Shown here one piece after another: positions 2,980 to 52,115 of a stretch of DNA of 64,000 bases (its first letter is position 1; every line of letters begins with the position of its first letter). The notes beneath the pieces were generated by a model, which saw only the letters and a program-made list of their open reading frames with translations, was not told the origin of the DNA and made no database searches. Position numbers and translations under genes: made by a program. The DNA is from Mobula hypostoma (taxonomy: Eukaryota). The DNA lies in contig NC_086108.1 of the NCBI RefSeq assembly GCF_963921235.1, positions 86,988,001-87,052,000 on the forward strand. Direction: 5' to 3'.

Positions 2980-3984
2980 TAATGGTGTTAAGGTCTTCAT
3001 CGATGATGATGGACGAACCTTACTGTATAATATTATGGTAATTCTTACACTATCTTCTTATTGGTGTGCACTTGGAAATCTTGTAAGTCTTGTAATATTT
3101 GACTTGTAAATCTTGTACATCTTATGTTTAAGGTAACTTTTTTATTCTTTCTTCTCTATTAATATTTGTATATCTGTGGACTTGTAATGTTACTGTGACA
3201 CTGTAATTTCCTATGGGATCAGTGAAGTATCTATCTATCTAAGCTGTCTGCCTGATGAGTATTTCCTGCATTTTCTGCTTGTATTTTGTGGTAATTTGGT
3301 GGAAGCAAAGGTCGGAACATATATTAGAAATATCACAGTTGACAAATGAGTCAAGCTAAACCCTGAACTTCTTGTTATTTTTTTAAAAATTGCTTCAGTT
3401 GGGGTGTTTTTTTACTGTGAACAAAATCAGGTGGCTTAGTTGTTAAAAAGATCAAAGGAAGTCTCAAATTCTCGTCCCCGTGAAGAAAATTAGATCAAAC
3501 TCAGGAATAATAACAATTAAAGAGCAGTTTGGGCTTTACTGTAATTACATCTATAACAGAATTTTAATTTCATTTCATATGATTATGAAATTTTGTGTTT
3601 TGCCCAATACCGCCCAATGCTTTTATCTTTCCAGCCTTCTTCCCACCCCGTTATGCCACTGACCAGCACGTCCCACAGAGTAATGGAATTGCTCAGCAGT
3701 CTATGTATGCATTTTAAAACCAGGCGCAGCATCCCGAAAGAATGAAAATGTAAATCCTGTATGGTTGACATTTACTGCATGTGAAGAGTGTTATCAGTGA
3801 AAAAGCAGTTTTCCAGAAAGTTTTTTTTTCAGTTTAGACAGCTTAAACTGAGAATTTCAAGCGTGACCAACCACTTAAAAGTTATTTGCTTTGTATTAGA
3901 ATAAATCTTTAGATAGAATCTCCAGACAGAAAATGATGTAGTTAAATATCTAACAATTTAAGAGATTTACTACTCAGTTAGCAG

Positions 3985-15360: not shown

Positions 15361-16169
15361 TTCATTTACAGAGTCTTTGCTCCAGGGAGATACTTGAATA
15401 GTAATAGTAGAAAGTAGCAATCAGATTAATATCTGATATAGTCACTACTTATATATCAGACCACACTGACAAAATCAGCAAAGAGTGAATCTCAACCAAG
15501 TAAAGTAGCAAGTAATTGCCATGGACATATGCGAATATTAGTGATATCTTCACAAGGGAAGAAACCTTTCCTGTGCTACTCTTGGTTAGCAGCAGAGATT
15601 TTATGATTTGTTGTAAATTATCAGTCATTGTAACAATACAGGTTGATTGTAATGAGTGGCAACTACAATCACATAAAACAACCTAAAGGTACATATGAAA
15701 AAGGCAGCTCAAAATGGCAGGAACATTTAAAAAAGATCAACTATATTCTTCAAAGATTGTTAGAAAAGGAGAGTAAATTTAAAAGGAAGTAATTAAGATA
15801 ATTAACAAAATGCAATGTTTTATATCTGAGGGAATCATGGAGAGGGGTTCAATCTGGAAAAGTGATGCTGATGTAAAAGATCTGACATGATTTTATTGAA
15901 TGGTAGAACAGCAAATGTGGCCAAATACTCCACCCCTTTGTTTGGAGTACAATGGGAGTTAGACCTGGGAATACACAAGCACAGAATACGTAATAATCCT
16001 GGCAAATATCATTTTTTATTTTACAGGTGAAATCGGGGTAGAAGAGAATCTCATAAACTTGTTTCAACATGGCTATTAACAACAACTGCTGGCAAATAAC
16101 ATCTGTCTACAACATCATTGGCCTGCACAGAATTGCAGCAGCTTTTAGGGTGGTAACAGAATATAGGGC

Positions 16170-16972
16170 TACACACTTGTCTGCTCCAGCAAACCAGTGA
16201 CACAAACAGTTAGAGCTCAGGGCCACACACTAATCTGCTCCAACATCCAGGGACACGAGCAGTCAGAGTTTAGGGCTACACACTATAAACTGCTTCATCG
16301 CTCAATGACACGAACAGTCAGAGCTCAGGCCGCACACTAATCTGCTCCAATGACCAGTGACAGAGTCAGAGCTCAAATCAACACACTAATCTGCTCCAAT
16401 GACCAGTGACACAGTTAGAGCTCAAATCAACACACTAATCTGCCCCAATGACCAGTGATGCAGTCAGAGCTCAAATCAACACACTAATCTGCTCCAATGA
16501 CCAGTGACAGAGTCAGAGGTCAAATCAACACACTAATCTGCTCCAATGACCAGTGACACAGTTAGAGCTCAAATCAACACACTAATCTGCTCCAATGACC
16601 AGTGACAGAGTCAGAGCTCAAATCAACACACTAATCTGCTCCAATGACCAGAGACACAGTTAGAGCTCAAATCAACACACTAATCTGCTCCAATGACCAG
16701 TGACACAGTTAGAGCTCAAATCAACACACTAATCTGCCCCAATGACCAGTGACAGAGTCAGAGCTCAAATCAACACACTAATCTGCTCCAATGACCAGTG
16801 ACAGAGTCAGAGCTCAAATCAACACACTAATCTGCTCCAATGACCAGTGACAGAGTCAGAGGTCAAATCAACACACTAATCTGCTCCAATGACCAGTGAC
16901 AGAGTCAGAGCTCAAATCAACACACTAATCTGCCCCAATGACCAGAGACACAGTCTGACCTCAAGGCCACAC
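16170..16972 (+). repeat. 49-bp minisatellite, ~13 near-identical units plus ~3 diverged units on the left
   Basis: Unit CACACTAATCTGCTCCAATGACCAGTGACAGAGTCAGAGCTCAAATCAA starts at 16382, 16431, 16480 and so on (period 49). Confidence 0.97.
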
Positions 16973-36530: not shown

Positions 36531-37178
36531 AACTGAACCATTGCTCTTTTGGGTTAAAAAACTGCAACAGGACTGAAACTGGAGAGGGTAGCTAGCCAGT
36601 GTAAAGTGAAGGGGATGAGCAGTGAGACACTAGGTCTGTGTTGTGTGGCCAGGTACCAGGTCTTCTGGTGGTTATTTGGATTTATCCAGCTTAGTCTAGT
36701 CTGCAGGCCTAGTCTTCTGTCAAAATCATTCTACCCTACTCTATCTCCTAGAACTATGGATAGCAGGCATGGCCCCTTGAAAGAATCAGGACAGTCCCTC
36801 TAACTGACAATCAAGTTTTGGGCACCAAAAATTGAGCACTTAAACTCACCCGAACTGAGTTTCGGTGCTCAATCGTAAGCCAATTTGTGATTTCATCTAG
36901 TGACTGTTTTGTGCTCAGATTCTCGTTCCAGTTTGAGACCGTGTCTCGATCCTTGCCGCAGATACTCCAGCACTTGGGTCCAACCCATTCTCGTCAAAGT
37001 CTTTCGTGACAGGGAAAGGTTGAGTAGGTTAAGGCTTTATTGCCTGGAGCATAGATGAATGAGGGGAGATTTGGTAGAGGTTATTGAACCAGAAAGCAAA
37101 ACCATACACACCACAATTTAGCAACACTATGACCACTTTGACCACTTTGCATTCAAATAGACTGTTTCATTTTTATTC

Positions 37179-37908
37179 GATAGATAGATAGATAGATAGA
37201 CATACTTTATTGATCCCGAGGGAAATTGGGTTTTGTTATAGCTGCACCAACCAAGAATAGAGCATAAATATAGCAATACAAAACCACAAACAATCAAACA
37301 ACAATATGCAAACTATGCCAGATGGAAATAAGTTCAGGACCAGTCTATTGGCTCAGGGTGTCTGACCCTCCACGGGAGGAGCTGCAAAGTTCAATGGCCA
37401 CCGGCAGGAACAACCTCCAATGACACCCAGTGTTGCATCTTGGTGGAATATGGCCAGAGTCCAACAGCAAAAAGATCAACATCCGGGCTACAAGCACGTT
37501 TCTTGATCGTAATATGACCAGAATTGCACCATCTGTTGTTAACCAGAACAGCAAGCCCCCCCCCCCCTTTTACGCTTACTGCTCTCAGTGCACTTCCGGT
37601 CAGCCCAAACGGTCTGGAAACCCTCTATGGACATGTTTTGATCGGGTATGACCTCGTGCAGCCACGTTTCAGTAAAACACATAATGCTGCTCTCCGGAAA
37701 TGTTCTCTGACTCCTGGCTAGCGCCGTCAACTCGTCCATTTTATTACCCAGCAATCTCACATTGCCCATAATGAGAGAGGGAAGACATGGCTTATAACTC
37801 CTCTTCTCCATAAGTCTCTGTTGTCTCGACCCGATCCTCTTTCCTTGCCTTTTTGATCCCCCTCTGCATCCTCTGTGTGTTTTCCTCCAGATTTCAGCTG
37901 GGGTGTTC
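37179..37908 (-). mobile_element. Rex1/Babar LINE, internally deleted (endonuclease N-terminus fused to the 3' end)
   Basis: ORF 37539-37961 has IMGNVR.L.NKMDEL and CFTETWL (APE). The 3' end is homologous to 51860-52100, with a (TATC)n tail at ~37179-37200. Confidence 0.9.
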
Positions 37909-38248
37909 CTCCTTTCTTTCTCAAACTTTTTTATTAAGTTTCGAATTGATAAACATAACAATGATAATGATACAAAGAGATCGGGATTACATTAATGTCA
38001 ATGTATACAGACACAGACTCCGAGTAACATATGTAATTTAAGCCTCCCAATCTCTTAATAACTAAACATGAAAAAGATTCAAAAAATTTTATACAAAGAA
38101 TAAGTTCCTCTACACTAAAAAAAAACAAAAAAAGCAAAACAAAACAAACCAAAACAAAGGCTGGGCTGCCATGTTTCATCCGTTAAAATCATTATTTGTC
38201 ATAAACTCCACTCCTCTATACACAAACAAAAAGTTATTGAAAAGGATG

Positions 38249-40014
38249 CAATAGACAATAGACAATAGGTGCAGGAGTAGGCCATTCAGTCCTTCAAGCC
38301 AGCACCGCCATTCACTGTGATCATGGCCGATCATCCACAATCAGTACCCTGTTCCTGCCTTATCCCCATATCCCTTGACTCTGCTATCTTTAGGAGCTCT
38401 ATCTAACTTTTTCTTGAAAGAATCCAGAGAATTGGCCTCCACTGCCTTCTGAGGCAGAGCATTCCACAAATCCACAACCCTCTGTGAAAAAGTTTTTCCT
38501 CAACTCCGTTCTAAATGGTTTAACCCTTATTCTTAAACTGTGGCCTCTGGTTCTGGACTCCCCCAACATCAGGAACATGTTTCCTGCCTCTAGCAATCAG
38601 ATCCCCTCTCATCCTTCTGAATTCCAGTGTATACAAGCCCAGTCACTCCAATCTTTCAACATATGACATTCCCGCCATCCTTGGAATTTACCCAGTGAAC
38701 CTATGCTGCACTCCCTCCATAGCAAGAATGTCCTTCCTCAAATTTGGAGACCAAAACTGCACACAATACTCCAGGTGGGGTCTCACCAGGGCCTTGTACA
38801 ACTGCAGAAGGACCTCTTTGCTGCTATACTCAACTCCCCTTGTTATGAAGGCCAACGTGCCATTAGCTTTCTTCACTGCCTGCTGTACCTGTATGCTTAC
38901 TTTCAGTGACTGATGAACAAGGACACTCAGATCTCGCTGTACTTCCCCTTTTCCTAACTTGACACTATTCAGATAGTAATCTGCCTTCCTGTTCTTGCCA
39001 CCAAAGTGGATCACCTCACATTTATCCACATTAAACTGCATCTGCCATGCATCTGCCCACTCACTCAACCTGTCCAAGTCACCCTGCATTCTCATGACAT
39101 CCTCCTGACATTTCACACTGTCACTCAGCTTTGTGTCATCTGCAAATTTGCTAATGTTACTTTTAATCCCTTCATCTAAATCATTAATGTATATTGTAAA
39201 TAGCTGCGGTCCCAACACCGAGCCTTGCGGTACCCCACTAGTCACTGCCTGCCATTCTGAAAAGGACCCGTTCATCCCTACTGTTTGCTTCCTGTCTGCC
39301 AACCAATTTTCTATCCATGTCAGTACCCTACCCCCAAAACCATGTGCTCTAATTTTGCCCACTAACCTCCTATGTGGGACCTTATCAAGGGTTTTCTGAA
39401 AGTCCAGGTACACTACATCCACTGGCTTTCCCATGTCCATTTTCATAGTTACATTCTCAAAAAATTCCAAAGGATTAGTCAAGCATGATTTCCCCTTTAT
39501 AAATCCATGCTGACTCAGACCTATCCTGCTACTGCTATCCAAATATGCTGCTATTTCATCTTTTATAATTGACTCCAGCATCTTCCCCACCACTGTTGTC
39601 AGACTAACTGGTGGTATAATTGCCTGTTTTCTCTCTCCCTCCTTTCTTAAAAAGTAGGATAACATTAGCTACCCTCCAATCTGCAGGAACTGATCCTGAA
39701 TCTATAGAACATTGGAAAATGATTACCAATGCGTCCACAATTTCTAGAGCCATCTCCTTATGTACCCTGGGATGCAGACCATCAAGCCCTGGGGATTTAT
39801 GAGCCTTCAATCCCATCAGTTTACCCAACAACATTTTCTGCCTGATGCAAATTTCCTTCATTTCCTCCGTTACCCTAGGTCCTCTGGCCACTATTACATC
39901 TGGGCGTTTGTTTGTGTCTTCCCTAGTGAATACAGATCCAAAGTACCTGTTCAGCTCGTCTGCCATTTCCTTGTTCCCCATAATAATTTCACCTGTTTCT
40001 GTCTTCAAGGACCC
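38249..40014 (-). mobile_element. CR1 LINE, 5'-truncated, nested in the L1 3' region
   Basis: ORFs 39604-40008 and 38688-39665 (RT: QHGF, GVPQGSVLGP, KFADDTK); (TATTGTC)n tail. Confidence 0.95.
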
Positions 40015-41308
40015 AACGGAAAATGTCAGCTTACATCATATGAAAATGTTGAATAAATGGCCTCCAAGTTTCTTCAAATTTAACTGAAGGATCAATAGTA
40101 CCACTCCTAATTTTTTCCAAGTTTAAGCATTGAAAACCATTGAAATGTAGTAGGGGGATTAGAATCTTTCTATTTAAATAAAATGGATCTTCTGGCTATT
40201 AATGTAACAAATGCAATCAAACGACAAGCTGAAGGGGATAAACGACTAGCCTATCACTGGTAGTCCAAAAATTGCAGTAATAGGATGAGGTTGTAAATCA
40301 ATACGCAAAACTACTGAAATAATATCAAAAATGTCTTTCCAACATTTTTCCAAAAGAGGGCAAGACCAGAACTTATGTGTCAAGGAAGCTACCTCAGAAT
40401 TACATCTGTCATAGAGAGGATTTATATGGCAATAAAAACGAGCTAATTTATCCTTAGATATATGGGCCCTATGAACCACCTCAAATTGTATGAAAGCGTG
40501 TCTAGCACACATCGAAGAAGTGTTGACTAGTTGAAGAATTTTCTCCCATTTCTCTGTAGGTAAAGATACCTGAAGTTCTCTTTCCCATTCATTCTTAATT
40601 TTATCAGATGTACCTAGACGTATTTTCGTAATTAAATCATGAACAATTACTAAGAAACATAAAGATCTATTTAAAGTTAACTTTTTACCCTTAATTGATC
40701 ATGTTAAACAACTGCTTCCTAAATGGTCCCCATTGTCCTTATCATTGATTGGTCGAATTAATGCTATTAAGATGATTATTTTACCTAAATATCTGTATCT
40801 ATTTCAGGCAGTACCAAACTTCATCTCTAAATCCTTTTTTGATATTATTGATTCCAAAATTTCTTCATATATATGGCAGAATAAAAATCCTAGGTTAAGT
40901 AAGAAATCTTTACAGAAATCAAAAAAGGACGGCGGTTTGACATTGCTGAACTTTAGATTCTATTATTGGGCAATTAATATTCGATGTCTAACGTTCTGGA
41001 CACAAGATTTGGATGAAATTCAATGTCCACGATGGGTGAACCTTGAGTGCGAGTCTGTACAGGGGTTCTCATTGGCTTCTATTTTAGGGGCTTCACTTCC
41101 CTTTGCACTTACTAAACTGAATAAACAAACAATTAATCCAATAACTAAACATACAATACGAATATGGTTTCGATTTTGTAAATTTTTTGGCTTGAATAAA
41201 TTTATCCTCTCAACTCCTATTATATCCAATTTTTTCTTCCAACCATCCAGAACTGATCAAGCTTTTCTTTTATGGAAAATGAAGGGAATAACATGTTTTG
41301 GTGATTTA

Positions 41309-42790
41309 TCTATATACTACTAAAACTCTCATGCACTGTCTGTCTGTTTGTCTGTTTGTGACCTCCAATTACCGCAAATGCTGCATTACAGCGGCACTTG
41401 TTTTGGCTAAATCGAATTAAAATCCACTAACTTACAGAACGCAGGCAAAGTTCAGGGTTATATATTCATATCAAATTGCTCATTCACCAAAAATCAACAG
41501 GCTGTCTTTCACTCCAAACCCGAACGGCCATCATGGAACTCAGGACGCTACAGCCCAACGCATGCACACAGCCAGCCTCAGCAGCACCTGACGATGCTCA
41601 CAGAGCTGCTTCATCCTTCCATGGAGACCGTGACGCCACAGCCCAACGCATGCGCACGGCCAGCCTCAGCAGTTTAGAGGCTTTGGTGTTACTGCTTCCT
41701 ATCTTCTATCAAGCATTAGGGTAAAAATATACGGATAGCCCAATTATGCCACGTGGAAAGAGAAGGGGGACATTATGGTCAAGAGATGACGCCAAACGTC
41801 GTCGGGAAGCAGCAAGGAGAGGGAGAGAACAACAATCGGATGAGGCCAGGGCCGCATGACTCCAGGATCAAAGAGTCAGGACAAAAAAGATGAGAGAAGA
41901 CGAGACAGAGGAGGAGAGGTATGCATGTCTCCAAAACGACAATAGGCACAGACCGAGGAGAGAACAAGAATCCGGTCAGGCCAGGGTCACACAACTCCAG
42001 GATCAGAGAGAAAGAACAAGTGGTAGAAGAGATGAAGAGATGAAGGATGAAAGGGCTGCGCGTCCCCAGAATGATAAAAACAGGCAGAGAAAGAGGAGAG
42101 AGGAAGAGACAGAGGAGAAAAGGAAAGATCAACTCGAGAATATGCAGCACAGAGTAATTATTGCAAGAGTTGCTGAAGACAACAATGACCGCTTTCGACG
42201 ACAGTACCTCGACAGAGAAGGGGCAAGGGAAAATACACGACTCGCATGCCGTCACATTTCTGCAAATGTTGGTTCGATGACCAGAGTATGCCCTCATTAT
42301 TCACTGGAGAAACTGCACATTTCTGCTGTATGAAGGGACAGGTCAGGATAGGCAATTTGCAGCCTCTACCTAATGAACTCCTCAATTTGTACAGCAATGA
42401 TGAACCTATTGCAAATGACTTCAGGAAGAACATCAGACAATACAATTGCCTCTTCCAAATGACATCTTTTGGTGCCAAAGAAGTCATTCCAACTAGGAAT
42501 CGATGGAATCCTTCTGCGATTATTCAAGGCCAAATCCATCATTACATCGGACATTTAATTCCAGTCCCGACCCAGCAAGCCCCATTCCTTCAAATTTACT
42601 TCAGGATATTTAATGTTCATTCTGGTCACATATTTGTCTTGCAATGCATCTTTCTTCTTTAATAAGCTGAGTTTTTCTTCTTTAATTTCCAAATCAAAGA
42701 GATAGTAATAGCATTCAGGAAAATTTAATGTTTATTCTGGTCACAACAGACTGTACTACCCTTCTCTCAAAGGGTGCCCCAACTATCTAG
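41309..42790 (+). mobile_element. Non-autonomous Helitron (RepHel N-terminal remnant)
   Basis: 5' TC and 3' CTAG ends, inserted between A and T with no TSD; subterminal hairpin ACCCTT...AAGGGT. Coding remnants are R/E-rich repeats, VGSMTRVCPH, CCMKGQV and FRKNIRQYNCLFQMTSFGA. Removing it restores the L1 reading GDL|FMDN. Confidence 0.93.
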
Positions 42791-42892
42791 TTCATGGATA
42801 ATTGTCTCATGTCTTTTGAACAGTTGTCTAATAAATATAATTTGCCTAGATCACATTTTTTTCAGATATTTACAGATTAGAAACTTTTTGAA

Positions 42893-44068
42893 ACTCCTTT
42901 GACAAGGTTCCACATGGAAGGTTAGTTAGGAAGGTTAAATCCTTAGACATTAATATCGAAGCAGTAAAATGGATTCAGCAGTGGCTGGATGGGAGATGCC
43001 AGAGAGTAGTGGTGGATAACTGTGTGTCAGATTGGAGGACGGTGTTTGGCGGTGTGCCTCAGGGGTCTGTACTGGGTCCAATGTTGTTTGTCATATATAT
43101 TAATGATCTGGATGATGGGGTGGTAAATTGGATTAGTAAGTATGCAGATGATACTAAGATAGGTGGCGTTGTGGATAATGAAGTAGGTTTTCAAAGCTTG
43201 CAGAGAGATTTAGGCCAGTTAGAAGAGTGGGCTGAAAGATGGCAGATGGAGTTTAATGCTGAAAAATGTGAGGTGCTACATTTTGGTAGGACTAATCAAA
43301 ATAGGACATACATGGTAAATGGTAGGGCATTGAAGAATGCTGTAGAACAGAGGGATCTAGGAATAATGGTGCATAGTTCCCTGAAGGTGGAATCTCATGT
43401 AGATAGGGTGGTGAAGAAAGCTTTTGTTATGCTGGCCTTGATTAGTCAGAGCATTGAGTATAGGAGTTGGGATGTAATGTTGAAATTGTATAAGGCATTG
43501 GTAAGGCCAAATTTGGAGTATTGTATACAGTTCTGGTCACCGAATTATAGGAAAGATGTCAATAAAATTGAGAGAGTACAGAGGAGATTTACTAAAATGT
43601 TGCCTGTGTTTCATCTCCTAAGTTACAGAGAAAGGTTGAACAAGTTAGGTCTTTATTCTTTGGAGCGTAGAAGATTGAGGGGGGACTTGATAGAGGTATT
43701 TAAAATTATGAGGGGGATTGATAGAGTTGACGTGGATAGGCTTTTTCCATTGAGAATGGGGGAGATTCAAATAAGAGGACAAGAGTTGAGAGCTAAAGGG
43801 CAAAAATTTAGGGGTAACATGAGGGGGAACTTCTTTACTCAGAGAGTGGTAGCTGTGTGGAACGAGCTTCCAGCAGAAGTGGTTGAGGTAGGTTCAATGT
43901 TGTCGTTTAAAGTTAAATTGGATAGATATATGGACAGGAAAGGAGTGGAGGGTTATGGGCTGAATGCAGGTCAGTGGGTCTAGGTGAGAGTAAGAGTTTG
44001 GCACAGACTAGAAGGGCCGAGATGGCCTGTTTCCATGCTGTAATTGTTATATTGTTATATGGTTACAT
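42893..44068 (+). mobile_element. CR1 LINE, 5'-truncated, nested in L1; open 324-aa RT C-terminal ORF (43009-43983)
   Basis: GGVPQGSVLGP, KYADDTK, LVRPNLEYCIQFWSP. The L1 reading IRNFL|NVILPTFP is restored on removal. Confidence 0.95.
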
Positions 44069-44851
44069 GAATGTTATTTTACCTACTTTTCCGATACCAC
44101 ATCAAACTGAAATTACAGAAAAAATTTTAGGTTTAAACCCTTATCAGAAGAGTTTAATAGCAATTGTTTATAATTTAATTACGAAAATACATCTAGGTAC
44201 ATCTGATAAAATTAAGAATGAATGGGAAAGAGAACTTCAGGTATCTTTACCTATAGAGAAATGAGAGAAAATTCTTATTTTTATTCTAATTGTGTTTCTT
44301 GTAAAGTATTGTGTATAATGTTTGTTTATGCCTTCCTTAATGAATACTGCTTATATAATACTCTGTGCGTGTGATGTAGCTGCAAGTAAGTTTTTCATTG
44401 CACCTGTGTATGCATGTACTTGTGCATATGCCATTGAACTTGGTTTTGACTTTCTACTACCCATATTACTGTCAGTGGATCCTCCATCAATTATAATGGA
44501 ATTCATCAAATTTCCTTTTGGTTGTACATTCTACCTTAACTGCTGCTTCTTCTGACAACAGAAATTAATAGTTGAAGCTGCAAGTTTGCTGAAGAACATT
44601 TTATCCTGTCTGGCTTTGTATAGCCAATCTCTATCTTCTCCTTCCTCCATTTCACTGGGTATAGCTATTGGCAGACTGCCATGCCAACCAACATTGACCA
44701 ACAGGCTGCTATATGGATAACAAACATCTGCCCTTACAGAACTCACAAAAATGTGAGGGCTTTAGATAGGGAAAATGTAAGCAGGCTTTTTTCCACTGAG
44801 GTTGGATGAGATTAGAACTAGAAGTCATGGGTTAAGAGTGAAACCTGAAAT

Positions 44852-46138
44852 TGTCATGGTCCGGTCCGTGAAGTCCGCATTCCGGTTCACGGTTTGGTCC
44901 GTAGACTCAGGAGTCCGGGTCTTCCAGCTGTCCCTCATTTAAGTTAATCATAGGCACCTGATTCCCATCTTTGGGCTTGCAATATAAGTAGCCTTGGGAT
45001 TGAGTGTGGGCTGCTGGCTTGTCTTGCCAGTTCTCCTTGGAGCAACCTGCTGATGGAAGGCTAGTGAAACCATTTGTGATCTCTAGGCCTGGTTGGAGGA
45101 CCACTGCTTCATGGAGCCTTGTTGCCACTTGTTGGAGTGGTCTTTGTGGTATGGATTTGGCTGTTTCCTGGCCCAGTTGAGTGGCTGCTAGCCACTTGAA
45201 GCTAGGTAGGGATCTGGCTGTTTCCATAGCTGGCTGAGGTTGCTGGCTGAACTGAGACTCAGAGCTTCCCTGGAGCAGAGATTGAACTGTCTGTTGTTCT
45301 TTGTTGTTTGTCTCTTCTTGTCCTTGCCTCTGTGGGGTAAGCCAGGCTGTTTTGCTGTTGCCCTGCAGGGTGATCTGTCTTGTCTTGTCCTTGCCTCTGT
45401 GGGGTAAGTCAGGCCATCTGGCTGTTGTCCTGTGGGGTGACCTGTCTTGTCCTTGCCTCTGTTGGGTAAGTCTGGCTGTTCTGCCGTTACCTGATAGAGA
45501 GACCTGTCCCACCTTGGTGTGGAGATGAAGTTGAGTCCTGGCTTGTCGTAGGATGAGTCCTGGCTCTATGTCTATGTTCTGTCCTGTCTCATGTTACTGT
45601 TGTGTTAAAGATGAGTCCTGGATTGTTGAAGGATAAGTCTTGGCTCTATGTTGATGTTCAGTTCACAGTCTGTCTCTCAGCTCCAGCCTCTGAGTTATCA
45701 GCCTCTGCATTTCAAGACGAGGATCCGGCAGCCAAGCTCCAGGAGCCCGAGCCGCGAGGATCCGGCAGCCAAGCTCCAGGAGCCCGAGCCGCGAGGATCC
45801 GGCAGCCAAGCTCCAGGAGCCCGAGCCGCGAGGATCCGGCAGCCAAGCTCCAGGAACCCAAGACCTCGACATGTCATGTCCTTGCCTGGTTCTGGGGTCT
45901 GAGCCCTAGATAAGACCCAGGTTCTGGGTCCTTGTCCTGTATCGGGCTTGGAGTCTGAGCCTTGTCTCCTAGTCCATGGTTCCTAGTTCTGGTCCCGCTT
46001 TCCCTAGCCCAAGTCTGCGTTCTTGTCCCTGCTCCTTGCCTGTATCCTGTCATGTCCCTTCTCCAGTCAAGTCCTGTTTCTTGTACTTCAGTGTCTGTAT
46101 CTCACAACTGGGTCTGTTCCCAGCACCCTATTGTGACA
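44852..46138. mobile_element. Solo LTR (Gypsy-like) inserted in a CR1 3' fragment (~44750-44851 and 46139-~46385)
   Basis: TGTCA...TGACA inverted termini and a short (A)AAT duplication. The flanks rejoin as CR1 gtgaaa..gaaat|atttaaggggaacatga. Internal tandem repeats are present and there is no coding capacity. Confidence 0.8.
45718..45855 (+). repeat. 37-bp CpG-rich tandem repeat (~3.7 copies) inside the solo LTR
   Basis: Unit CGAGGATCCGGCAGCCAAGCTCCAGGAGCCCGAGCCG starts at 45718, 45755, 45792 and 45829. Confidence 0.95.
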
Positions 46139-49831: not shown

Positions 49832-52115
49832 AGGCTTTAGGTCAGATGGTCAGATCACAGCCTGGTGCATCTAAAACCCTGCTACGTGCCTCTGGTGAAG
49901 AGTAAACCTGCAACCTCGAGGACAGTGAGGAAATGGTCAGAGGAGGCTTATGAGGCGCTCCAGGGTTGTTTTGAAGTGACAGACTGGCAGGCACTCTGTG
50001 AGCCACATGGAGAGGATATTGATGGGCTCACAGAGTGCATCACTGATTACATTAACTCCTGTGTGGACTGCAATGTTCCGACAAGAACTGTCCTTTGTTA
50101 TTCAAATAACAAGCCATGGGTGACAAAGGCCATTAAGGACATCCTGAACACTAAAAAGAGGGCGTTCAGAGATGGAAATAGGGAGGAGCTGAGGGCAATA
50201 CAGAGGGACCTGAAAGCCAGGATCAGGGAGGCTAAAGACAGGTACAGGAGGAAGCTTGAGTGGAAACTCCAGCAGAACAACATGAGAGAGGTCTGGAGGG
50301 GGATGAGGACCATCACTGGGTTCCGGCAAACTAGCAACAGAGGAGCTGAAGGCAGTGTGGACAGGGCCAACAAACTTAACCTGTTCTTTAACAGATTTGA
50401 CATTGTGACCCCTGCCCATCCCCCACATGAGCCATCAGTTGTCGGCCCCCAACCAACACATATTCCACTCTCCCCTCCTACCCCTCCTCACAGTCCCCCA
50501 CCCTGCTCTCATGATTATACCCCTCCCCTACATGAAACCACCACGGTGGGCTTCACGGCTGAACAGGTGAGAAGACAGCTGAAACATCTCAACCCAAGCA
50601 AGGCTGCAGGACCGGATGGTGTCAGTACCAGGGTGCTCAAGGCCTGTGCCCCTCAACTATGTGGAGTACTTCGCCATGTCTTCAACCTGAGTCTGAGGCT
50701 CCAGAGGGTTCCTGTACTGTGGAAGATGTCCTGCCTTGGCCCTGTGCCGAAGACGCCGCGCCCCAGCGGCCTCAATGACTACAGACTGGTGGCATTGACC
50801 TCCCACATCATGAAGACCCTGGAGAGACTTGTTCTGGAGCTGCTCCGGCCTATGGTCAGGCCACACTTAGATCCCCTCCAGTTCGCCTACCAGCCCCAAC
50901 TAGGAGTTGAGGATGCCATCGTCTACCTGCTGAAACGTGTCTACGCCCACCTGGACAAGCCAGCGAGCACTGTGAGGGTCATGTTTTTTGACTTCTCCAG
51001 TGCGTTCAACACCATCCGCCCTGCTCTGCTGGGGAAGAAGCTGACAGCGATGCACGTGGATGCTTCCCTGGTATCATGGATTCTTGATTACCTGACTGGC
51101 AGACCACAGTACTTGTGCTTGCAACACTGTGTGTCCGATAGAGTGATCAGCAGACTGGGGCTCCACAGGGGACTGTCTTGTCTCCCTTTCTCTTCACCAT
51201 TTACACCTCGGACTTCAACTACTGCACAGAATCTTGTCATCCTCAGAAGTTTTCTGATGACTCTGCCATAGTTGGATGCATCAGCAAGGGAGATGAGGTT
51301 GAGTACAGGGCTACAGTAGGAAACTTTGTCACATGGTGTGAGCAGAATTATCTGCAGCTTAATGTGAAAAAGAGTAAGGAGCTGGTGGTAGACCTGAGGA
51401 GAGCTAAGGTACCGGTGACCCCTGTTTCCATCCAGGGGGTCAGTGTGGACATGGTGGAGGATTACAAATACCTGGGGATACGAACTGACAATAAACTGGA
51501 CTGGTCAAAGAACACTGAGGCTGTCTACAAGAAGGGTCAGAGCCATCTCTATTTCCTGAGGAGACTGAGGTCCTTTAACATCTGCCGGACGATGCTGAGG
51601 ATGTTCTACGAGTCTGTGGTGGCCAGTGCTATCATGTTTGCTGTTGTGCACTGGGGCAGCAGGCTGAGGACAACAGACACCAACAGAATCAACAAACTCA
51701 TTCGTAAGGCCAGTGATGTTGTGGGGATGGAACTGGACTCTCTAACGGTGGTGTCTGAAAAGAGGATGCTGTCCAAGTTGCATGCCATCTTGGTCAATGT
51801 CTCCCAACCACTACATAATGTACTGGGTGGGCACAGGAGTACATTCAGCCAGAGACTCATTCCTCCGAGATGCAACACAGAGCGTCATAGGAAGTCATTC
51901 CTGCCTGTGGCCATCAAACTTTACAACTCCTCCCTTGGAGAGTCAGACACCCTGAGCCGATAGGCTGGTCCTGGATTTATTTCATAATTTACTGGCATAA
52001 TTTACATATTACTATTTAACTATTTATGGTTCTATTACTATTCATTATTTATGGTGCAACTGTAGCGAAAACCAATTTCCCCCGGGATCAATAAAGTTAT
52101 GACTATGACTATGAC
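49832..52115 (+). mobile_element. Rex1/Babar LINE, 5'-truncated, RT with one frameshift (ORFs 49865-51271 and 51178-51963)
   Basis: NNKPWVT, KAAGPDG, NDYRLVALTSHIMKTLERL, DPLQFAY, FFDFSSAFNTI, KFSDDSAIVG, YKYLG, LYFLRRLRSF; (GACTAT)n tail. Confidence 0.95.

What the first reader, a model, noticed from the sequence alone, without database searches (positions are those of the whole stretch)
37169..44286. L1 and Rex1/Babar apparently inserted as one chimeric unit with a single TSD
Seen: ATTTTTATTC occurs at 37169-37178 (abutting the Rex1 (TATC)n tail) and at 44277-44286 (abutting the L1 end). The outer flanks read as two halves of one older repeat. On the minus strand the L1 3' tail (AATAAAAAAGTTTGAGAAAGAAAGGAGGAA) runs directly into Rex1 sequence at ~37908. 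Inference: a cross-clade chimera made by RT template switching, or by retrotransposing an L1-to-Rex1 read-through RNA primed at the Rex1 3' end.
Basis: partly seen in the sequence, partly recalled or inferred. Interest (0 to 1): 0.7.

Follow-up and report, generated by a model that had tools for sequence, protein, structure and literature searches.

The report
Twin-primed L1 carrying a Rex1 remnant
Inside one 10-base target duplication in a fish genome (likely a ray) lie an L1 retrotransposon copy with a flipped front half and a cut-down piece of an unrelated Rex1-type element; they likely arrived together as one read-through RNA, though a later separate Rex1 insertion is nearly as likely, and there is no sign that the fusion spread as a family.

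Summary
ATTTTTATTC flanks the unit exactly (37169-78, 44277-86), the flanks join in other repeat copies, and the L1 tail meets Rex1-type sequence at 37908 through 3 extra bases.

The L1 is 5'-inverted: about 120 bp are duplicated in opposite orientation, with microhomology at the inversion point (twin priming). The Rex1 piece is 5'-truncated and has lost about 2.4 kb internally. Two CR1-type copies and a Helitron-like piece (about 4.4 kb) landed later; the core is about 2.7 kb.

The junction is not an amplified family: contig depth drops from about 280,000 (Rex1) and 10,000 (L1) to about 100 at the joint, and no listed contig bridges it. One copy cannot be told from a few.

The 10-bp duplication and the inversion point to L1 machinery. 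Best reading: one read-through RNA (3' transduction), 0.40. Rivals: Rex1 inserted later at the tail/duplication boundary (0.32), template jump (0.18), Rex1-driven copying (0.07). A single event of any kind totals about 0.65. The parts are known mechanisms; the combination in a cartilaginous fish was not found in my searches.

The parts
37085..37168 (.). Left half of an older repeat (start approximate)
   Evidence: Contigs join 37140 to 44379 in 4 of 4 runs
37169..37178 (.). Target-site duplication, copy 1 (GAATAAAAAT on the element strand)
37179..37448 (-). Rex1-type 3' end: last ORF codons, 3' UTR, AATAAA (37206-11), (TATC)n tail 37179-37200, no poly(A)
   Evidence: 77% to the 3' end of the second Rex1-type copy at 51859-52106
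37449..37908 (-). Rex1-type 5' part: N-terminal endonuclease region, 5'-truncated at about codon 37; joined to the 3' end across a deletion of about 2.4 kb with ATT microhomology at 37447-49
   Evidence: tblastn to P0001 aa 37-153 at 70%, and to P0002 up to aa 201; paralogues continue past 37906/37908
37909..37911 (-). Three bases (GAG) matching neither parent; read as a decayed (GAAA)n unit or untemplated bases
   Evidence: piece ends and loose ends
37912..38247 (-). L1 3' UTR with AATAAA (37930-35) and complete (GAAA)n-type tail
   Evidence: L1 paralogues end at 37912 with mixed flanks
38248..40017 (-). Nested later CR1-type LINE (clade label recalled)
   Evidence: Joint 38247 to 40018 in paralogues; RVT_1 E 3e-26
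40018..40652 (-). L1 forward arm, ORF2 aa about 1057-1260
   Evidence: tblastn with P0024 and P0027
40643..41308 (+). L1 inverted arm, ORF2 aa about 779-996; overlaps the forward arm at 40643-52 (AATT core microhomology)
   Evidence: 72% to P0019
41309..42790 (+). Nested later Helitron-like fragment (TC...CTAG ends, between A and T)
   Evidence: Joint 41308 to 42791 in 4 of 4 runs; ends; Atlas lead PF14214 on 35% of members at rank 23
42791..42888 (+). L1 inverted arm continued, ORF2 aa about 995-1021
42889..44067 (+). Nested later CR1-type LINE (clade label recalled)
   Evidence: Joint 42888 to 44068 in 4 of 4 runs; RVT_1 E 3e-19
44068..44276 (+). Outer end of the L1 inverted arm; 44158-44276 duplicates 40534-40652 in opposite orientation
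   Evidence: 93.6% over 125 nt; 5 transitions in 115 nt
44277..44286 (.). Target-site duplication, copy 2
   Evidence: organism-C contig starts aligning at 44277
44287..44440 (.). Right half of the older repeat (end approximate)
   Evidence: joint and depth

Best explanation
The locus holds a 5'-inverted L1 copy and a truncated, internally deleted Rex1-type piece inside one 10-bp duplication, and they were likely inserted together when L1 machinery copied one RNA that likely ran from a donor L1 through its tail into a neighbouring Rex1 remnant (3' transduction with twin priming). Shown: the anatomy, the duplication, the inversion with about 120 bp duplicated and microhomology at the inversion point, the complete L1 tail, the three later nested insertions, and the lack of an amplified junction. 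Inferred: (1) a donor locus with an L1 sitting at GAACACC inside a Rex1 remnant; (2) read-through to the Rex1 AATAAA/(TATC)n end; (3) an L1 endonuclease nick after ATTTTTATTC priming the first cDNA at the Rex1 tail; (4) the second nick, 10 bp away, priming a second cDNA inside ORF2 (aa about 1090); (5) joining of the two cDNAs at 40643-52. The product lacks most of ORF2 and both 5' ends, so it was likely dead on arrival.
For: One long duplication encloses both elements, with exact boundaries. The order L1 (5') then foreign piece (3'), same strand, ending 27 nt after an AATAAA, is the order of a 3' transduction; catalogued mammalian switch chimeras carry the foreign sequence 5' of L1 (PMC13174262, section 10). 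Inversions were seen almost only with L1, with 10-20 bp duplications, whereas L2 and CR1 peak at 3-5 bp (PMC4245944 passages). The L1 is L1 clade: its closest long homologue P0019 hits human ORF2p at E 4e-175 and R2 at 3e-27. Other Rex1-type copies show only 3-5 nt duplication candidates (2 of 2 that had both ends). Decay at conserved residues is the same in both parts: Rex1 6 of 68, L1 4 of 53, p = 1.0. Two mechanisms acting on one continuous RNA need no exact second hit.
Against: No donor or sibling junction was seen: 0 of 32 listed contig pieces bridge it, with 1,646 pieces not shown. The test is blind at low copy, since the window's own junction was not seen either. There is no poly(A) after the Rex1 tail and no microhomology between that tail and the target. 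This L1 family ends in (GAAA)n rather than poly(A); if it recognises its own tail it should not start at a foreign end. The target starts with GAA in phase with the L1 tail, which fits an L1-only insertion equally well. The 5' junction has no microhomology as it stands, against 95% of human 5'-inverted L1s having one (PMC2912911); one lost G would give a 13-bp duplication with 4-nt microhomology (untested). Equal age does not exclude two insertions close in time.
Confidence: 0.4

Rival explanations
1. Two ordinary insertions. A twin-primed L1 inserted first with the 10-bp duplication; a Rex1-type piece later inserted exactly between the L1 tail and the duplication, making only a 3-bp duplication (GAA) that doubles as 5' microhomology.
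For: The Rex1 piece starts GAA(CACC) and the duplication starts GAA(TAAAAAT). Removing Rex1 leaves an L1 tail in phase with its target. Rex1-type copies elsewhere have 3-5 nt candidates. The Rex1 subfamily is far more abundant than this L1 (about 26:1 peak depth in X1), and the L1 took three other later insertions.
Against: It needs a hit at one exact position and in the same orientation; no strong Rex1 target preference is visible in the 4 tail flanks seen. Ages of the two parts are indistinguishable. An organism-B contig runs 38 nt past 37168 and stops in the masked tail zone (record 18), which suggests, without showing it, that Rex1 was already there before the A/B split.
Confidence: 0.32
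2. Template jump in one event: reverse transcription began on a separate Rex1 RNA, stopped at 37908, jumped through GAA microhomology onto the (GAAA)n end of an L1 RNA, and was resolved by twin priming on the L1 RNA. The internal Rex1 deletion could be a further jump.
For: A complete L1 3' end meets a 5'-truncated partner with 3 extra bases and GAA in phase. No second copy was seen. Double jumps inside one duplication are documented in a fungus and in mouse (PMC2104539 passages), and 452 Alu/L1 chimeras in human (PMC13174262 section 12).
Against: L1 is here the 5' partner, the reverse of the usual order. It needs trans priming on a poly(A)-less foreign tail, a jump and twin priming in one event.
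Confidence: 0.18
3. One read-through RNA copied by Rex1 reverse transcriptase, which recognised its own 3' tail and carried upstream L1 sequence along.
For: It explains a start exactly at (TATC)n without poly(A); LINEs with repeat tails are thought to need their own 3' end (PMC3747384 passages).
Against: The 10-bp duplication and the inversion are L1-like; other Rex1-type copies show at most 5 nt (n = 2).
Confidence: 0.07
4. The 10-mer match is chance, or the structure is an assembly error.
For: The 10-mer is AT-rich and occurs once more in the window; the junction itself was not seen in contigs of the same species.
Against: Chance is about 1e-4 to 9e-4; the organism-C contig breaks at exactly 44277; the twin copies differ by 5 transitions, so the duplication is old.
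Confidence: 0.03

Closest known systems
5'-inverted (twin-primed) mammalian L1 insertions (Ostertag and Kazazian 2001, seen only as cited in PMC2912911 and PMC4245944)
   Same: Inverted 5' arm plus forward 3' arm, duplication of 10 bp or more, microhomology at the inversion point.
   Different: Cartilaginous-fish L1 with a (GAAA)n tail; no 5'-junction microhomology as it stands; a foreign LINE piece at the 3' end.
L1 3' transduction (PMC5673974, start of abstract in a search listing; otherwise recalled)
   Same: L1 followed by downstream sequence on the same strand, ending shortly after an AATAAA, inside one duplication.
   Different: No poly(A); donor not found; the carried piece is a remnant of another LINE clade.
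Template-switch chimeras: U6/L1 and Alu/L1 (PMC13174262), U6/L2 and U6/RTE-like (PMC4476161), fungal MINE and tripartite elements (PMC2104539)
   Same: Two retro-sequences fused on one strand within one duplication; usually no further spread.
   Different: Both partners are autonomous-LINE derived and from different clades; L1 is the 5' partner.
Bipartite non-autonomous LINEs (RTE, Ingi, Vingi, R2; PMC5786205) and SIDEs from CR1 (PMC6740152, search listing only)
   Same: The Rex1 piece has a 5' part joined to the 3' end by an internal deletion.
   Different: It keeps endonuclease coding sequence rather than only UTRs, lacks the 5' end in this copy, and family status is not shown.

Membership tests
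L1 clade LINE | ORF2 related to L1 ORF2p more than to other clades | tested here: met
   Pieces are 72% identical to P0019, which hits human ORF2p at E 4e-175 and R2 at 3e-27; full-length homologues of about 1,270 aa carry endonuclease and RT. No tree against Tx1 was built.
L1 clade LINE | Poly(A) tail as in mammalian L1 | tested here: not met
   Paralogues end in (GAAA)n-type tails.
Twin-primed 5' inversion | Inverted arm whose outer end lies near the start of the forward arm | tested here: met
   Inverted arm runs from ORF2 aa 779 to about 1090, forward arm from aa 1057 on; about 120 bp overlap.
Twin-primed 5' inversion | Microhomology at the inversion junction | tested here: met
   AATT at 40645-48; 10 nt with one mismatch to each arm, the inverted arm's parent inferred from protein homologues.
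Twin-primed 5' inversion | Microhomology at the 5' junction | tested here: inconclusive
   None as it stands; a one-base loss would give 4 nt. The empty-site sequence was not seen.
Twin-primed 5' inversion | Duplication of 10-20 bp | tested here: met
   10 bp.
Rex1/Babar clade | Single ORF with AP endonuclease and RT; tandem-repeat tail | tested here: met
   Homologues of 890-1,050 aa from bony fish at 51-70%, with RVT_1 and PF09004; (TATC)n tail also on the full-length relative L003.
Rex1/Babar clade | Placement in an RT tree with named Rex1 and Babar references | not testable with these tools
L1 3' transduction | Donor locus with the same downstream sequence | tested here: inconclusive
   No bridging contig among 32 listed, but the window's own copy was not seen either.
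L1 3' transduction | Poly(A) after a downstream polyadenylation signal | tested here: not met
   AATAAA is present at 37206-11 but no poly(A) follows; the family itself has none.
Chimeric (single-event) retro-insertion | Both parts present or absent together across species (criterion of PMC13174262, section 10) | tested here: inconclusive
   Organism C lacks the L1 beside the right duplication; no intermediate state could be read.
Amplified chimeric family | Many copies of the junction | tested here: not met
   Depth 98/116/167/25 at 37908-11 against 10,000 or more beside it in X1, X2 and X5.
Bipartite non-autonomous LINE family | Many copies sharing the same internal junction | tested here: inconclusive
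   Depth ratio of 5' to 3' part is 0.17-0.29 in organisms A and B and about 0.01 in C and F; 0 of 150 proteins carried the junction peptide (one regex flag was a full-length ORF) and one search found none; contigs across 37448 were not examined on their own.

The most novel reading that the evidence does not exclude
A ray L1 that ends in (GAAA)n instead of poly(A) can start reverse transcription on the microsatellite tail of an unrelated Rex1 RNA and finish by twin priming, so L1 machinery crosses LINE clades without poly(A); and the Rex1 piece belongs to a bipartite Rex1 family amplified to thousands of copies in one ray lineage, a clade not listed among those known to make bipartite elements.
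Probability: 0.2. Interest if true: 0.55.

Novelty: new variant of a known kind. Interest (0 to 1): 0.32.

Why it matters
If it was one event, it shows that a fish L1 without poly(A) can prime on another clade's tail. That bears on whether non-mammalian L1s recognise their RNA strictly or loosely, and on how LINE tails get exchanged. Independently of that, the inversion is a clear twin-priming signature in a cartilaginous fish, whereas the papers I saw describe it from mammalian L1. As a single dead copy it has no evident function, and each mechanism is already known.

Tried and rejected
No own genome is held, so the junction could not be counted in an assembly.

Pattern scans for ray copies: none in metagenome contigs for the Rex1 5' pattern, none in genome contigs or viral contigs. 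The tail pattern gave 3 loci, of which 2 are Rex1-type relatives from another fish and 1 (L002) is a chance match.

Protein searches across the internal Rex1 junction gave nothing; this is weak evidence.

Earlier findings of the scan: nothing in 3 look-ups.

Missing cover of the junction in X1 and X2 is not taken as absence of the insertion, because contigs drop rare variants. Runs with small word shares (X13, X14, X21-X23) and the other unlaid runs were not used; 5 of 23 listed runs were laid.

Rejected: Rex1 first with the 10-bp duplication and L1 later at its 5' edge, because a twin-primed L1 would then have no duplication of its own. Rejected: an amplified chimeric family. Rejected: a full-length Rex1 5' end at 37908, because paralogues continue. 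Dating by decay at conserved residues did not separate the parts. The open frame at 44537-44707 stayed unidentified. Ichiyanagi and Okada 2008 is not held. No supplementary files were read; the chimera tables of PMC13174262 may hold L1-then-foreign cases that bear on the order argument.
Full report
Setting. No whole genome is held. The nearest named protein hits are from rays (Mobula birostris P0006; Hypanus sabinus P0020-23), so the host is likely a batoid. A run search listed 23 runs; I laid 5 of them in two calls. X1 (organism A) matches the flanks with 0 differences over 442 and 360 nt, so it is likely the same species. Flank divergence is 21/957 for B, 15/255 for F and 76/869 for C.

Observation. 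The 10-mer is at both stated places and is exactly 10 nt. Its two copies touch the (TATC)n tail and the last L1 base. Chance is about 1e-4 to 9e-4. Contigs joining the two flanks (37140 to 44379) occur in 4 of 4 runs. One organism-C contig aligns from exactly 44277 and continues 114 nt unlike the L1; its letters were not shown, so the empty site is inferred, not read.

Anatomy. About 4.4 kb of the 7.1 kb are later guests. Paralogous L1 contigs skip 38248-40017, 41309-42790 and 42889-44067. The first and third encode RT and I read them as CR1 from recall. The second has TC...CTAG ends and a weak Helitron lead. The core is about 2.7 kb. On the minus strand it reads: duplication, inverted L1 arm (ORF2 aa about 1090 back to 779), forward L1 arm (aa 1057 to the end), 3' UTR, (GAAA)n-type tail, GAG, Rex1-type endonuclease region from codon 37, a deletion of about 2.4 kb with ATT microhomology, Rex1 3' end, (TATC)n, duplication. 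The L1 is L1 clade.

The inversion. About 120 bp of L1 are present twice in opposite orientation, and the arms overlap at 40643-52. This is the twin-priming structure described in PMC2912911 (passages), where about 31% of recent human and chimpanzee L1 insertions are inverted. PMC4245944 (passages) found inversions almost only with L1, with 10-20 bp duplications, against 3-5 bp peaks for L2 and CR1. One feature does not fit: there is no microhomology at the 5' junction, which only 4.6% of human cases lack; a single lost base would restore it (untested). The twin copies differ at 5 of 115 sites (4.3%, interval 1.4-9.9%). That lies between the A/B and A/C divergences, but the interval overlaps both.

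The junction. Laying 37852-37968 gave peak depths of 282,000, 313,000, 1,168,000 and 1,183 on the Rex1 side and 10,800, 10,300, 37,300 and 3,570 on the L1 side, but 98, 116, 167 and 25 at 37908-11. None of 32 listed pieces bridges it (longest 63 nt; 1,646 not shown). So there is no amplified chimeric family. One or a few copies cannot be counted this way, because the window's own junction was not seen. Rex1 paralogues continue upstream with their own sequence, so this piece is truncated. L1 paralogues end at 37912 with mixed flanks, so the L1 tail is complete and poly(A)-free.

Mechanism. The long duplication and the inversion point to L1 machinery. The two other Rex1-type copies with both ends visible (L001 and 49847-52115) give only 5-nt and 3-5-nt candidates. 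The open question is whether Rex1 was on the template. For one RNA: one duplication encloses both parts; the order is that of a 3' transduction, ending 27 nt after AATAAA; and the two parts are equally decayed (6/68 against 4/53). Against: no poly(A), no donor seen, and GAA starts both the Rex1 piece and the duplication, so a later Rex1 insertion with a 3-bp duplication reproduces the sequence exactly. GAA is also in phase with the L1 tail, so it is expected under read-through and under a jump as well. My rough per-insertion estimates (inference, not a call) put read-through and sequential insertion within a factor of about two. I commit to read-through at 0.40, sequential 0.32, jump 0.18, Rex1-driven 0.07, chance or error 0.03.

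Comparison with what is known. Chimeras inside one duplication are documented for U6, Alu and other RNAs with L1 (PMC13174262, passages and sections 10 and 12), for U6 with L2 and RTE-like LINEs (PMC4476161, passages) and in a fungus (PMC2104539, passages). The first of these uses joint presence or absence across species to tell chimeric from sequential insertion, which is the test missing here. Strict against loose 3' recognition is reviewed in PMC3747384 (passages). PMC6274825 (passages) gave no duplication length for Rex1. PMC5786205 (passages) lists only RTE, Ingi, Vingi and R2 as makers of ORF-less bipartite LINEs; PMC6740152 (listing only) adds CR1. Ten searches listed no paper whose title or abstract start concerns an L1/Rex1 fusion or an inverted L1 in a cartilaginous fish. 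The library lacks most subscription journals and Repbase, so this is weak.

Side result. The ratio of Rex1 5'-part to 3'-part depth is 0.17 in X1 and 0.29 in X5 but about 0.01 in X9 and X15. This hints at a short two-part Rex1 family amplified in the A/B lineage; it could also be a recent burst of long copies. Protein searches across that junction found nothing.

Verdict. Interest 0.32.

Noticed in passing
window 37419-37908 against 37146-37418: The Rex1 5' part is about 15-45 times more abundant relative to the 3' part in organisms A and B than in C and F: a possible lineage-specific bipartite Rex1 family.
   Followed up: partly
window 44535-44708 (-): Open frame of 57 codons bounded by AG and GT, in a stretch conserved in organisms B, C and F; possibly a host exon, which would put the unit in an intron in gene sense. 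No Pfam, PDB or Atlas hit.
   Followed up: partly
window 49847-52115 (+): Second, 5'-truncated Rex1-type copy of another subfamily with a (TATGAC)n tail, 68-78% protein identity to P0001; only 3-5 nt duplication candidates.
   Followed up: partly
window 41309-42790 (+): Helitron-like fragment of 1.48 kb, much more abundant in organisms A and B than in C and F.
   Followed up: partly
P0006: An annotated Mobula birostris JAZF1b isoform carries about 95 residues of this Rex1 endonuclease region in frame: a possible exonisation or an annotation artefact.
   Followed up: no
L003:2152-5500 (-) and L001:620-745: Near full-length and 5'-truncated Rex1-type relatives with the same (TATC)n tail in a metagenome-collection record; ray and bony-fish proteins of this family are 60-70% identical, which may point to horizontal transfer.
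   Followed up: no
window 16165-16964; 45309-45508; 45718-45859: Minisatellites of 49 bp (13-16 copies), 62-67 bp (3 copies) and 37 bp (3.8 copies, 99% alike).
   Followed up: no
window 3183-3241 (+): Short Rex1-type 3' end with a (TATC)n tail.
   Followed up: no
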